From: Eledone cirrhosa
Taxonomy: Eukaryota
Direction of reading: 5' to 3'
Length of the DNA stretch: 64,000 bases
Assembly (NCBI GenBank): GCA_964016885.1
Contig: OZ024765.1
Location: forward strand, 7,378,001 to 7,442,000
Made by a program: the position numbers and the translations under genes. The notes under the pieces are model-generated. The model made no database searches. It had not been told where the DNA came from and was given only the letters and a program-made list of their open reading frames with translations. Below, piece after piece: positions 3,501-45,500 of the stretch; the stretch's first letter is position 1; each line of letters starts with the position of its first letter.

Positions 3501-6500
3501 TAATGGTTCGATGAGGTTTAGGGACCCACCTTTTTCCACAATGTGAACCATGGACTTACAAAGATTAGTTGAAAAGTTCATAGGCTGACCAAGATACTCT
3601 CATGGAATGACCAAATGAGGTTTATTTTTCAACATAGTGCCTGGAAATAAACAATGCAGTTATTAATAAGAAGAGTTGAAATGAATGCATGCAAGATTTC
3701 ACATCTCTAGCATCACTCCTTCATACGCTGACCAAAATACTCTCATGGAATGACCAAATGAGGTCTATAACTAACTTTCTCATTATTAAGTTGGTGTTTG
3801 GAACATAACAACAAATGTTACATAAAACTATGATGAAAGATTTCTTTTACTATATTTCTAATAAAAGACACTGCCTATCCTAAATCATTTGGGTAATTAT
3901 ATAGAATTTGGATGGCTTTTATTAATAAATCTAACTTTCTCATTATTAAGCTAATATCTGGAACATAACATAACGAAGGTTCTTACATAAAAATATATAT
4001 GGAAGGTTTTTTTTTTTAGATAAACAAATATTTTAAAATAAACAGCCAGTGTGATATCAAAAATATATCATTAGAAATATGGTAGTGAAAGGGTTGATAA
4101 TGAGAAAATTAGTTATATTACTAAATCCTTCTAAATTTTTGATTATTTTCAAAATTATTTGAAAACCATAGGCAGTGTCTTTCATTAGACATATGGTAAT
4201 GAAAGGTTTAAAGACATAGACAGTGTCTTTCATTAGACATATTGTAATGAAAGGGTTAAAGACATAGACAGTGTCTTTCATTAGAAATATGGTAATGAAA
4301 GGGTTAAAAACATAGACAGTGTCTTTCATTAGAAATATGGTAATGAAAGGGTTAATGACATAGACAGTGTCTTTCATTAAAAATACGGTAATGAAAGGGT
4401 TAAAGACATAGACAGTGTCTTTCATTAAAAATATGGTAATGAAAGGGTTAATGACATAGACAGTGTCTTCCATTAGAAATATGGTAATGAAAGGGTTAAT
4501 GACATAGTCAGTGTCTTTCATTAGAAATATGGTAATGAAAGGGTTAAAGACATAGACAGTGTCTTTCATTAGAAATATGGTAATGAAAGGGTTAATGACA
4601 TAGACAGTGTCTTTCATTAGAAATATGGTAATGAAAGGGTTAAATTCTATTTAATATTACAGCTCAACAAAGAATTCTTCTTGTTCACAACATTTGGAAT
4701 CCTCCATGTACATGAAGATATGTCATCTACTATTCACCGACTATCAGACTGGCGCAGGGAGGCTGATCTCTGGGAAGCAGTTAGAGGCATACATTTCTTC
4801 AAGTACCTTCTGCTTAACAAAATGTTTCAAAGGTCTTTATATTTCCATTTAATTTTTTTGCTATATATATATATATATGTATATAACTCTTTTACCTGTT
4901 TCAGCCATCCGGCTGAGGCCATATATATATATTATCTATCTATCTAAGGCGGGTAAAATTCCCGAGATCCATGGACGAGTTCTCTCCAGCGGTCTCTGTC
5001 CCTCATTATCGCTGCCATATCCTGCATCTCCAACAGACCAGTGTCTGTCCTTAGGGCATCAACATATGTTAACCTTGGTCTTCCTCTTCTAGTGTGTCCA
5101 TGTAGGGGCTCCCAAAGGAGCACTGAGTGCAATGTCAACTCTGGATGCCGGTGAGCATGTCCAGCCAACCTCAGTCTCCTCTGTGTCACTTTTGAGCTGA
5201 CTTTTGGGATGCTCCCATACAGCTCTGAGTTTTTCATCCTCAATGTATACTGATTAATGTTCAGAGCCATCCTCAGCATTCTTGTGTAGCACCCATCCAC
5301 CATCTGAGTGAGTCTCTTGGTCAGTGTCCAAGTCTCAGACCCACTGGAGAAACACCAGGACTCTGGCTTTACTGTAGCACCGGCTCAGAGCAGGAGAGTT
5401 GGGGCGAAAAAGGTATCGGATGCTGAATTTGCCGACGACATAGTTTTGGTGACAAATACAGTGAAGGAGGCAGAGGATTTGATGCAGGAGGTTGAAACTG
5501 TGTCGATGAGTGTAGGACTGAGAATGAATGAGACTAAAACAAAATATCTGGTAGAGAATGTTGAGAAGCCAGAGGGGATCACTAATGTAGGCGGGAAGCC
5601 ACTGGAATTGGTTGAGGACTTCCTGTATTTGGGAGCAAAGATATATATTATAATCATCATTTTTATATCTATTTTTCCAAGCTTGCATGGATTGGATGGG
5701 TCCTTTTTAGCACAGTATCTCCTCAGTGATTTTCAGCAATTTGAGATCAGCTCTCACCTCCTGTAAGGTGGTTGCGTTGGTGACATGACAAAAAGCACCC
5801 AGTCCACCCTGTAAGGTGGTTGTGTTGGTGACATGACAAAAAAAGCACCCAGTTCACCCTGTAAGGTGGTTGTGTTGGTGACATGACAAAAAAAAGCACC
5901 CAGTCCACCCTGTAAGGTGGTTGTGTTGGTGTCATGACAAAAAAGCACCCAGTCCACCCTGTAAGGTGGTTGTGCTGGTGACATGACAAAAAGCACTCAA
6001 TCCACCCTGTAAGGTGGTTGTGTTGGTGACATGACAAAAAGCACCCAGTCCACCCTGTAAGGTGGTTGTGTTGGTGACATGACAAAAAAGCACCCAGTCC
6101 ACCCTGTAAGGTGGTTGTGTTGGTGACATGACAAAAAGCACTCAATCCACCCTGTAAGGTGGTTGTGTTGGTGACATGACAAAAAGCACCCAGTCCACCC
6201 TGTAAGGTGGTTGTGTTGGTGACATGACAAAAAGCACTCAATCCACCCTGTAAGGTGGTTGTGTTGGTGACATGACAAAAAGCACCCAGTCCACCCTGTA
6301 AGGTGGTTGTGTTGGTGACATGACAAAAAAGCACCCAGTCCACCCTGTAAGGTGGTTGTGTTGGTGACATGACAAAAAAGCACCCAGTCCACCCTGTAAG
6401 GTGGTTGTGTTGGTGTCATGACAAAAAGCACCCAGTCCACCCTGTAAGGTGGTTGTGCTGGTGACATGACAAAAAGCACTCAATCCACCCTGTAAGGTGG

Positions 6501-42500: not shown

Positions 42501-45500
42501 TCTTTTCTTAGATTCGCCAGCAGTTTCAAGAGAGCCAGGAAAACCTCTTCGATCTAAACAAATGGAAGAAGGTTATCTGCGGTGCATCTTATGACTTGGG
42601 ATTCCTCAATGGGATGGTCACAGAGTTGGATGCTCGCTTTGATCTGTGGAAATATCTGAGAAACACAATCGAAAAAACTGCAGAATGGAAGAAAATGTCA
42701 TTTAAAAAGGTGAGAATTAGATGTGGCCATGCTGGAGTACGTCATTATTTCATTTGTTTCAGTCATTGTACTGTGGCCATGCTGGGGTACCTCATCATTT
42801 TACTGGTTCCAGTCATTAGACTGTGGCCATGCTGGGGCACTGCCTTGAAGGAATTTATTCTTGTATTCTTTTACTTGTTCCAGTCATTTGACTGGCCATG
42901 CTGGGGCACTGCGTTGAAGGGATTTAGTCTTGTATTCTTTTACTGGTTTCAGTCATTAGACTGTGGCCATGCTGGGGCACTGCGTTGAAGGGATTTAGTC
43001 TTGTATTCTTTTACTGGTTTCAGTCATTAGACTGTGGCCATGCTGGGGCACTGCGTTGAAGGGATTTAGTCTTGTATTCTTTTACTTGTTCCAGTCATTT
43101 GACTGGCCATGCTGGGGCACTGCGTTGAAGGGATTTAGTCTTGTATTCTTTTACTGGTTTCAGTCATTAGACTGTGGCCATGCTGGGGCACTGCACTGCG
43201 TTGAAGGGATTTAGTCTTGTATTCTTTTACTGGTTTCAGTCATTAGACTGTGGCCATGCTGGGGCACTGCGTTGAAGGGATTTAGTCTTGTATTCTTTTA
43301 CTTGTTCCAGTCATTTGACTGTGGCCATGCTGGGGCACTGCGTTGAAGGGATTTAGTCTTGTATTCTTTTACTGGTTTCAGTCATTAGACTGTGGCCATG
43401 CTGGGGCACTGCGTTGAAGGGATTTAGTCTTGTATTCTTTTACTTGTTCCAGTCATTTGACTGTGGCCATGCTGGGGCACTGCGTTGAAGGGATTTAGTC
43501 TTGTATTCTTTTACTGGTTTCAGTCATTAGACTGTGGCCATGCTGGGGCACTGCGTTGAAGGGATTTAGTCTTGTATTCTTTTACTGGTTTCAGTCATTA
43601 GACTGTGGCCATGCTGGGGCACTGCGTTGAAGGGATTTAGTCTTGTATTCTTTTACTGGTTTCAGTCATTAGACTGTGGCCATGCTGGGGCACTGTCTTG
43701 AAGGGATTTAGTCTTGTATTCTTTTACTGGTTTCAGTCATTAGACTGTGGCCATGCTGGGGCACTGCGTTGAAGGGATTTAGTCTTGTATTCTTTTACTG
43801 GTTTCAGTCATTAGACTGTGGCCATGCTGGGGCACTGCACTGCGTTGAAGGGATTTAGTCTTGTATTCTTTTACTGGTTTCAGTCATTAGACTGTGGCCA
43901 TGCTGGGGCACTGCGTTGAAGGGATTTAGTCTTGTATTCTTTTACTGGTTTCAGTCATTAGACTGTGGCCATGCTGGGGCACTGCGTTGAAGGGATTTAG
44001 TCTTGTATTCTTTTACTGGTTTCAGTCATTAGACTGTGGCCATGCTGGGGCACTGCGTTGAAGGGATTTAGTCTTGTATTCTTTTACTGGTTTCAGTCAT
44101 TAGACTGTGGCCATGCTGGGGCACTGCGTTGAAGGGATTTAGTCTTGTATTCTTTTACTGGTTTCAGTCATTAGACTGTGGCCATGCTGGGGCACTGCGT
44201 TGAAGGGATTTAGTCTTGTATTCTTTTACTGGTTTCAGTCATTAGACTGTGGCCATGCTGGGGCACTGCGTTGAAGGGATTTAGTCTTGTATTCTTTTAC
44301 TGGTTTCAGTCATTAGACTGTGGCCATGCTGGGGCACTGTCTTGAAGGGATTTAGTCTTGTATTCTTTTACTGGTTTCAGTCATTAGACTGTGGCCATGC
44401 TGGGGCACTGCGTTGAAGGGATTTAGTCTTGTATTCTTTTACTGGTTTCAGTCATTAGACTGTGGCCATGCTGGGGCACTGCACTGCGTTGAAGGGATTT
44501 AGTCTTGTATTCTTTTACTGGTTTCAGTCATTAGACTGTGGCCATGCTGGGGCACTGCGTTGAAGGGATTTAGTCTTGTATTCTTTTACTGGTTTCAGTC
44601 ATTAGACTGTGGCCATGCTGGGGCACTGCGTTGAAGGGATTTAGTCTTGTATTCTTTTACTGGTTTCAGTCATTAGACTGTGGCCATGCTGGGGCACTGC
44701 GTTGAAGGGATTTAGTCTTGTATTCTTTTACTGGTTCTAGTCATTAGACTGGCCATGCTGGGGCACTGCCTTGAAGGGATTTAGCCGTATCGTATATCAT
44801 GGTATGTTACGATACATAATTGTTTCTACTTTTTGGCACAAGGCCAGCAATTATCCCAGTGCATTACTGGTACTTTATTTTATCGACCCCGTAAGGATGA
44901 AAGGCAAAGTTAACCTCGGCGGGAATTGAACTCAGATCGTAAAGGGACGTAACTATGCTGGAAAGCATAATCCAAACCTCTACCGATACTGCCAATTCAC
45001 CGCCCTTGTATTATGCCAATTCACCCCCAATATATTATGTTACGATACATAATATATGTTAATGTATATACCTATATATGATTTGATATATACTATATAA
45101 TATGGTATATTATACTCTGTTATAAACAATATGACATGTAACAAATGAAGGCAGGGAGTGGGGAGATACTGTGCTGGAAATCTTCCCTCCAACATATGAA
45201 GGCATGGAAAAATGGAGGTAAAATAGTGATGGTGATGATGATGATGTAAATAAGATATATAATGTGATATATGTTACAGATGTTATGCTATACTACAGAT
45301 GCTATACAATATGATATACTATGTTACACATGTAATACAACACAACGGATGTTACAGATGTAATACTACACAACAGATGTTATGTAATATATGATATGTT
45401 ACACATGTAATACAACACAACGGATGTTACAGATGTACTACTACACAACATACATTATGTAATATATGATATGTTACAGATGTAATACTACACAACAGAT

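What the first reader, a model, noticed from the sequence alone, without database searches (positions are those of the whole stretch)
4148..44785. Most intronic tandem arrays are amplified fragments of different mobile elements
Seen: at least eight arrays have a monomer that also occurs unexpanded in, or contiguous with, a dispersed element in this window. These are the 48-bp (MITE-like end), 48-50-bp (RTE 3' UTR, four arrays), 95-bp (relative near 60.35 kb), 74-bp (R4-like ORF end, two arrays), 112-bp (SINE-like), 84-bp (RTE ORF), ~22-bp (dispersed element) and 71-bp (SINE-like) units. Copies within an array are very similar. Many arrays start or end within about 10-55 bp of a splice site, and none crosses into an exon beyond the first few bases. 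Established: TEs can seed satellites. Inference: this density and variety suggests a general, recent local-amplification process that inflates introns whatever the seed sequence, with exons spared by selection.
Basis: partly seen in the sequence, partly recalled or inferred. Interest (0 to 1): 0.7.

Follow-up and report, generated by a model that had tools for sequence, protein, structure and literature searches.

The report
Minisatellites copied between resident transposon remnants
Half of the intron DNA of this dynein gene is tandem repeat, and most of the repeats in the flagged stretch are slices of jumping-gene remnants that recur at the same spot in many other, older copies on the small chromosomes, so they were likely copied between sites by DNA repair and then likely grew in place, a kind of process already described in reptiles and flies.

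Summary
The arrays are real and fill 29.7 of 58.7 kb of intron in a dynein heavy-chain gene. Their TE origin is real but not enriched: 9 of 17 units match dispersed repeats against 204 of 300 random intron fragments. Splice-site proximity is weak. The window is typical of this genome's small chromosomes. The idea of one-off local amplification is incomplete. Nine arrays belong to dispersed families. The 74-bp unit sits at one fixed spot in LINE copies on many chromosomes and carries seven changes the host lacks. It is about 2.5-fold less diverged than its hosts (35 of 37 loci). It occurs at 0 of 24 array-start loci on the four giant chromosomes, where 45 of 92 array-free copies lie. Likely mechanism: ectopic homology-directed copying into resident TE copies, then unequal exchange (0.6). 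Other arrays (71, 111, 36 bp) look locus-specific. Closest known: squamate SINE-derived satellites and Drosophila Rsp-like spread. The scan noted this pattern before on other DNA of this genome. New member of a known kind.

The parts
447..62431 (+). Host gene: 24 exons of an axonemal-type dynein heavy chain (N-terminal tail to DHC_N2); continues beyond the window
   Evidence: Stop-free 1103-aa frame, all GT-AG; Pfam DHC_N2 E=1e-12 on exon 56123-56362; PDB dynein hits; no transcript evidence
4167..4644 (+). 48-bp array at the end of a MITE-like element; dispersed family; ends 18 bp from the acceptor
   Evidence: five arrays at 100% consensus identity in 264 kb; also on C20 and C22
5760..6743 (+). 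48-bp array from the short tandem in an RTE-like LINE 3' UTR
   Evidence: unexpanded 2-3-unit versions at 3046-3164, 34323-34417, 55661-55756
8334..9448 (+). 95-bp array; dispersed family; the parent element carries a degenerate dimer
   Evidence: (1090 matches)
10025..10669 (-). 74-bp array inside the ORF end of a restriction-like-endonuclease LINE remnant (10670-11160); dispersed family
11796..12099 (+). Degenerate A/T-rich 12-44-bp array next to a dispersed element
12681..24222 (+). 49-bp, 236-copy array inside an RTE-like 3' UTR, with 4.35-kb and 1.4-kb higher-order duplications; same unit at three other sampled loci
24745..25459 (-). Second 74-bp array, with only about 30 bp of LINE flank
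27217..27733 (+). 111/112-bp array from a dispersed SINE-like element (label recalled); its junction was found only here
   Evidence: (4 matches, all in the window)
31954..32495 (+). 48-bp/132-bp higher-order array, RTE-UTR type
33002..33529 (+). 48-bp array, RTE-UTR type; fills most of a 648-bp intron
38026..39187 (-). 84-bp array inside an RTE-like ORF remnant (37849-39269); local 12-bp-shorter form of a dispersed 96-bp family
39776..41772 (+). About 24-bp low-complexity array contiguous with a dispersed element (39614-39758)
42716..44784 (+). 71-bp array from a SINE-like element (label recalled), starting 6 bp after the donor; one further dimer 260 kb away
   Evidence: (22 of 23 matches in the window)
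45271..46401 (+).
   Evidence: (6 matches, all here)

Best explanation
These are minisatellites cut from whatever DNA fills the introns, and nine of them share their unit with arrays at other loci; for the best-tested family the unit sits at one fixed spot inside older transposon copies, so it likely arose once, was likely copied into resident copies by homology-directed repair, and then likely grew in place by unequal exchange. Step 1 (anatomy shown, cause inferred): a slice of a TE is duplicated at one locus. Some parents already carry a 2-3-unit seed (RTE-like 3' UTR, 95-bp parent). Step 2 (inferred): a break in an array-free copy is repaired from an array-bearing copy, either on a chromosome or on an excised circle. 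TE homology on both sides anchors the repair and the array is written in. Step 3 (length change shown, cause inferred): slippage and unequal exchange change copy number quickly and create local variants, such as the 84-bp form of the 96-bp unit. Step 4 (pattern shown, cause inferred): this happens mainly on small chromosomes and chromosome ends, presumably because recombination per base is higher there. Locus-specific arrays (71, 111, 36/47 bp) would be arrays that have passed steps 1 and 3 only. No function is implied.
For: One origin: inner 74-bp units differ from the host LINE at seven positions plus one adjacent base (read by eye from the consensus lines); 110 of 204 junction segments are identical, mean divergence 1.8% over 19 loci. 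Younger than the hosts: flanks 7.6% against units 3.0% from their consensus, flank higher at 35 of 37 loci, rho 0.08. Like-for-like test on the same 42-nt core: inner units 4.0% (19 loci) against 7.4% in 20 array-free small-chromosome copies, p=0.001. Four more families found by TRF without sequence selection show flanks 82-86% and units 93-96% identical between loci. Not one TE lineage: array-bearing hosts carry both states of two subfamily markers, in proportions close to array-free small-chromosome copies (21:3 against 11:4; 16:8 against 7:7), and no flank change is shared by all of them. In L184 the outer units carry two host variants that the inner units lack (one locus, by eye). Distribution: 0 of 24 array starts on C1-C4 (54% of the genome) against 45 of 92 array-free copies, p=2e-6 (one unplaced hit left out of the test). 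None of 552 junctions lies on C1-C5. None of 288 96-bp junctions lies on C1-C8, while the parent motif has 100 hits in the first 162 Mb of C1. Of 461 starts of a 72-bp MITE array, 22 lie on C1-C4. Arrays on the same chromosome share variants more than shuffled ones (p=0.006 within 1.2 Mb, 0.013 same chromosome, after collapsing one duplicated cluster).
Against: No transfer event was caught: no orthologous TE copy with and without the array was compared. The host TEs are themselves unevenly spread: RTE-UTR parent 4 hits on giant against 33 on small chromosomes, MITE parent 4 against 12, per about 160 kb each. One LINE subfamily marker differs between giant and small chromosomes, and restricting to that subfamily weakens the test to p=0.006-0.013. 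About half of the loci were picked by an exact junction match, which favours young units. First units are not significantly older than inner units (5.6% against 4.0%, p=0.10). Only 14 of 24 arrays showed host sequence at both ends (4 of the other 10 were cut by the locus edge), and the 48-bp MITE-end, 95-bp and 121-bp arrays mostly lack long shared flanks, so two-ended repair cannot explain them all. Mean unit distance between near loci (5.1%) is close to that between chromosomes (5.4%). Exclusion from giant chromosomes is not absolute. The RTE-UTR 48-bp arrays are only 75-94% alike and may have expanded independently. No recombination map was available.
Confidence: 0.6

Rival explanations
1. 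An array-bearing master element transposed with its array. The young look of the units comes from later homogenisation or from preferential growth of pure arrays, and the chromosome bias comes from insertion preference.
For: Arrays sit at a fixed position with host ends. Parents are enriched on small chromosomes. LINE subfamilies differ by chromosome class. For the MITE and RTE-UTR families the element can carry a seed. In the 96-bp family the hosts look young, so the age test says nothing there.
Against: Array-bearing hosts are as far from each other (87.8% identity) as from array-free copies (86.0%), with no diagnostic change. Both subfamily states carry arrays. No 74-bp junction match, even of a two-unit form, lies on C1-C5, although array-free copies are as dense there as elsewhere. 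Unbiased turnover within a locus cannot lower divergence between loci (established theory, recalled).
Confidence: 0.22
2. One reading: each array arose on its own by local duplication of a resident fragment, with recurrent units caused by hot spots such as internal direct repeats.
For: Fits the 71-, 111- and 36-bp arrays, whose junctions are confined to this locus or its neighbourhood. Fits the 84-bp deletion variant. The TE share equals the background. Parents with built-in dimers exist. Duplicated loci differ in copy number (3-20 units at C13:13.15-13.22 Mb).
Against: Seven identical changes at dozens of unlinked loci cannot arise independently. Units are closer between loci than their hosts are in five families.
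Confidence: 0.13
3. The arrays, or their lengths, are assembly artefacts.
For: The 49-bp array has 1783 bp of exact identity at a 4353-bp offset. Two C19 loci 1.7 Mb apart are letter-identical over the 1.4 kb printed, flanks included, which could be false duplication. No read-level check was made.
Against: Arrays carry locus-specific variant patterns and higher-order structure, occur on both strands on many contigs, and follow chromosome size.
Confidence: 0.05

Closest known systems
SINE-derived satellites (sSat1-3) of squamate reptiles; Vassetzky et al. 2023, PMC10702118 (abstract, sections 6, 18, 19 and passages read; supplements not seen)
   Same: Arrays of a fixed slice of an interspersed element at many loci; terminal units run on into the parent; units more alike (89%) than parent copies (64%); subtelomeric preference while the parent is spread evenly; alternating higher-order variants.
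   Different: Hosts here include LINE ORF ends, a LINE 3' UTR and TTAA MITEs. The bias is towards whole small chromosomes of a bimodal karyotype. That paper invokes concerted evolution and does not use the term gene conversion (0 occurrences); in the parts read I saw no per-locus comparison of host and unit age.
Rsp-like satellite spread into 1.688 clusters in Drosophila simulans and mauritiana; Sproul et al. 2020, PMC7403614 (passages read)
   Same: A repeat with one fixed junction spreads to loci that already hold homologous sequence; interlocus gene conversion or circle reintegration proposed; followed by local expansion.
   Different: The landing pads there are another satellite on one chromosome; here they are dispersed TE remnants on many chromosomes. 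eccDNA was shown there and is untested here.
TE-derived tandem repeats in human; Ahmed and Liang 2012, PMC3389668 (abstract and section list only); review PMC9659126 (passages)
   Same: TE fragments seed minisatellites (23% of human mini/satellites by the abstract); hot-spot regions within TEs; later local expansion.
   Different: The abstract describes local duplication; density here is far higher (45% of the window).
Minisatellite-rich euchromatin of bird dot chromosomes; bioRxiv 10.1101/2025.10.14.682431 (passages)
   Same: Small chromosomes carry far more minisatellite (51% of dot euchromatin against under 3% elsewhere), with intronic enrichment of co-localising non-B motifs.
   Different: Those units are degenerate 10-30-mers; no TE origin was stated in the passages read.

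Membership tests
TE-derived dispersed satellites (sSat type) | Unit is a fixed slice of an interspersed element, the same at many loci | tested here: met
TE-derived dispersed satellites (sSat type) | Terminal units continue into parent sequence | tested here: met
   All 24 loci start in host sequence by design of the pattern; 14 of 24 also end in host sequence
TE-derived dispersed satellites (sSat type) | Units more alike between loci than parent copies are | tested here: met
TE-derived dispersed satellites (sSat type) | Subtelomeric preference against an evenly spread parent | tested here: inconclusive
   Strong bias to small chromosomes; on giant chromosomes 11 of 22 72-bp starts lie within 26 Mb of an end, but 8 on C4 are internal; the window is 7.4 Mb from the nearer end of a 23.8-Mb contig
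SINE-derived satellites in the strict sense | Parent is a SINE | tested here: not met
   The 74-bp and 84/96-bp parents are LINE ORFs; the SINE label for the 71- and 111-bp parents is recalled and was not tested
Rsp-like-type spread by conversion or circles | Shared fixed junction, inserted in resident homologous repeats | tested here: met
   110 of 204 junction segments identical; hosts of two subfamily states
Rsp-like-type spread by conversion or circles | Extrachromosomal circles of the repeat | not testable with these tools
   needs circle sequencing
Rsp-like-type spread by conversion or circles | Gain of the array at an orthologous resident site between species or haplotypes | not tested
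   no relative's genome is held for this window
R4/Dong-like restriction-like-endonuclease LINE (74-bp host) | C-terminal CCHC knuckle and PD..D endonuclease motif; (TAA)n flanks | tested here: met
   Seen in translation and flanks; motif meaning recalled
R4/Dong-like restriction-like-endonuclease LINE (74-bp host) | RT phylogeny placing it in the R4 clade | not tested
   no RT domain of this family was recovered
RTE-clade LINE (84/96-bp and 48/49-bp hosts) | RT domain and clade placement | tested here: inconclusive
   RVT_1 E=5e-11 on 29878-30348; clade name recalled from the C-terminal motif
piggyBac-like MITE (48-bp and 72-bp hosts) | Terminal inverted repeats flanked by TTAA at both ends | tested here: inconclusive
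   Inverted ends seen at 55095-55331 for the 72-bp parent, one with an imperfect TTAA; only one end seen for the 48-bp parent
Satellite-filled giant introns of Drosophila Y-loop dyneins (recalled) | Gene-specific, very large satellite introns | tested here: not met
   Largest intron 12.2 kb; array density not above the small-chromosome background, p=0.12

The most novel reading that the evidence does not exclude
Homing minisatellites: an array-bearing TE allele converts array-free TE copies in one direction, using thousands of dead LINE and MITE remnants as landing pads without any transposase or reverse transcriptase.
Probability: 0.3. Interest if true: 0.7.

Novelty: new member of a known kind. 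Interest (0 to 1): 0.42.

Why it matters
How tandem repeats move to new loci is an open question. Here each array sits in a datable host, and array-free copies of the same host give an internal control for age and position, so transfer by repair can be told from transposition with existing long-read data. It also warns that TE-derived arrays in one gene of this genome are background: about a quarter of sampled small-chromosome DNA is complex array. If the chromosome-size effect holds, arrays could serve as a proxy for recombination and for former small chromosomes inside the giant ones.

Tried and rejected
TE enrichment of monomers: not found at window level. Splice-site targeting: depends on the threshold, rejected as a robust signal. 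A gene-specific, Y-loop-like process: rejected. A subtelomeric position of the window: no, 7.4 Mb into 23.8 Mb. Homologue search with one exon found nothing at E<=0.001 (weak search). Sequencing runs: no RNA holder listed; no reads were laid, so array lengths and exon joins lack read-level support. A first test of variant sharing between neighbours was inflated by five segmental duplicates on C13 and was redone with four of them dropped. A tree test of one clade was not run, because 125-bp star-like flanks carry too little signal; marker columns were used instead, on 62 of 75 rows (13 dropped as short or under 80% identity). The second half of the script crashed and was redone. Exact-match patterns miss diverged relatives, so 'locus-specific' means no exact match elsewhere. 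Paper searches listed no cephalopod paper on TE-derived minisatellite families; searches listed none on transfer into resident TE copies other than PMC7403614. The library lacks most subscription journals, and no supplements were read.
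Full report
Setting. The window is G000:C26:7378001-7442000, on a 23.8-Mb contig of a 3.0-Gb genome. Four contigs are 379-443 Mb (54% of the genome), three are 103-136 Mb and the other large ones seen are 22-61 Mb. The repeats look octopod to me (recalled; earlier notes say the same). 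Twenty-four GT-AG exons give a stop-free 1103-aa frame. One exon hits Pfam DHC_N2 (E=1e-12) and axonemal dynein chains in the PDB. There is no transcript support.

The observation. Nineteen arrays fill 29.7 of 58.7 kb of intron. The 74-bp unit is the end of a restriction-like-endonuclease LINE ORF. The 84-bp unit lies inside an RTE-like ORF with host sequence on both sides. The 48/49-bp units come from a 2-3-unit tandem in the 3' UTR behind an RTE-like ORF. The 95-, 111-, 71- and 24-bp units and the 48-bp MITE end match dispersed elements. Clade and SINE labels are recalled.

Is it more than chance? I masked tandem repeats in 834 kb of genome (window, 200 kb of flank, 57 samples of 10 kb) and searched real units and random intron fragments of the same lengths. 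In the window 9 of 17 units hit a dispersed repeat, against 204 of 300 random fragments. Over 264 kb, 41 of 63 hit against 161 of 300 (p=0.12; p=0.002 at two hits, with non-independent arrays). Five arrays just outside the span have no TE match. Splice proximity is 8 of 19 within 55 bp (3.8 expected, p=0.006) but fades at 100 bp (p=0.15) and in a KS test (p=0.20).

The window is ordinary for its chromosome class. Complex arrays (period 30 or more) number 26.6 per 100 kb in the window, 23 in its flanks, 19.3 in 30 small-chromosome samples and 3.3 in 24 giant-chromosome samples (coverage p=0.002). The window's 17 arrays against 12.4 expected is not significant.

The same units recur. In 264 kb the RTE-UTR units form 13 arrays, the 48-bp MITE-end, 72/62-bp and 61-bp units five each, the 74-bp unit three, and the 95-bp unit two. 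Genome-wide exact matches: 552 for the 74-bp junction, 288 for the 96/84-bp junction, 1090 for the 95-bp unit and 20,485 for the 72-bp junction. In contrast the 71-bp (22 of 23 matches here), 111-bp (4 of 4) and 36-bp (6 of 6) patterns are local. Nine window arrays (17.7 kb) belong to dispersed families.

The 74-bp family in detail. The array sits at the same place in truncated LINE copies. Inner units differ from the host at seven positions around the junction and at one adjacent base, and this form is shared across loci (110 of 204 junction segments identical). It therefore arose once. Hosts are 7.6% and units 3.0% from their consensus, host higher at 35 of 37 loci with no correlation (one of 38 loci lacked a flank, and about half were picked by exact junction match). 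On the same 42-nt core, left free in both search patterns, inner units are 4.0% diverged (19 of 24 loci had enough units) against 7.4% in 20 array-free small-chromosome copies and 8.7% in 30 giant-chromosome copies (p=0.001); first units are in between at 5.6%. Four other families show the same gap: flanks 82-86%, units 93-96%. Array-bearing hosts share no diagnostic flank change and carry both states of two subfamily markers.

Position. Array starts: 0 of 24 on C1-C4; array-free copies: 45 of 92 (p=2e-6; p=0.006-0.013 within one subfamily). The 96-bp junction is absent from C1-C8 while the parent motif has 3225 matches, the first 100 all within 162 Mb of C1. For the 72-bp family 22 of 461 starts lie on C1-C4, against roughly 28% expected from a small sample of parent density (4 against 12 hits). 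The bias is strong but not absolute: the 95-bp pattern has three loci on C2 and C4. Arrays on the same chromosome share variants beyond chance after one duplicated cluster is collapsed (p=0.006-0.013), though mean distances differ little.

Mechanism. One origin, younger than the hosts, present in several host subfamilies and missing where array-free hosts are common: this fits copying into resident copies by ectopic homology-directed repair, from a chromosomal donor or a circle, better than transposition of an array-bearing master. It is an inference; no transfer was caught. Growth in place is shown by duplicated loci with 97-99% identical right flanks (four of five) and 3-20 units, by 11 against 7 units at two loci with identical flanks, by nested exact duplications in the 49-bp array and by the local 84-bp variant. 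The link to recombination rate rests on general knowledge of small chromosomes, not on a map.

Comparison. Squamate SINE-derived satellites have the same anatomy, the same excess similarity of units over parents and a subtelomeric bias (PMC10702118). Drosophila Rsp-like repeats spread into resident homologous repeats with a fixed junction, by proposed conversion or circles (PMC7403614). TE-derived minisatellites are common in human (PMC3389668, abstract; review PMC9659126), and bird dot chromosomes are minisatellite-rich (10.1101/2025.10.14.682431). Searches listed no cephalopod account. I formed this reading; an earlier unreviewed note on other DNA of this genome reached a similar one and pointed me to the squamate paper.

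Verdict. Observation partly confirmed, interpretation partly supported. New member of a known kind. Interest 0.42, because the matched array-free control makes the mode of spread directly testable; the intron inflation itself is background.

Noticed in passing
window 45271-46401: The 47- and 36-bp arrays hold 19 copies of the acceptor-plus-exon-start motif; the open frame needs the last one.
   Followed up: partly
window 62486-64000: A 38-bp array 55 bp after the donor at 62432 holds 15 perfect 5' splice consensus matches within the window; no TE match.
   Followed up: partly
window about 48505-52487: A Gypsy-like LTR element (zinc knuckle, RT, RNase H and integrase hits, in several frames; LTRs 86% alike) lies between two halves of a 32-bp array, as if inserted into it.
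   Followed up: partly
window 12681-24222: The 49-bp array has nested higher-order duplications at offsets 4353, 4451, 1421 and 5872 bp, with up to 1783 bp exact.
   Followed up: partly
window 4934-5642 and 29561-30533: Two RTE-like copies, 96% alike, each with one part inverted; the second has a 14-bp target duplication.
   Followed up: no
L189 and L192 (C19, 35.4 and 37.1 Mb): Letter-identical array and flanks; two more C19 loci show similar hit spacing. Large duplication or assembly duplication.
   Followed up: no
L197-L200, L056 (C13:13.15-13.22 Mb): Five duplicated LINE-plus-array loci, four with 97-99% identical right flanks, carry 3-20 units.
   Followed up: yes
L075-L104 against L122-L141: Two subfamily markers of the LINE differ between giant and small chromosomes even in array-free copies (17:6 against 4:11; G state 3 of 23 against 7 of 15).
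   Followed up: partly
L105-L121, L142-L181: Nine of 57 samples of 10 kb are tandem repeat from end to end, each with a different unit where a unit was printed.
   Followed up: no
L194:2100-2600 (C26:7.685 Mb): The same SINE-like element seeds a different, 37-bp array next to a dimer of the window's 71-bp unit.
   Followed up: partly
G000 C4:51-96 Mb and C1:211 Mb: Internal patches of 72-bp arrays on giant chromosomes; possibly former small chromosomes or ends.
   Followed up: no
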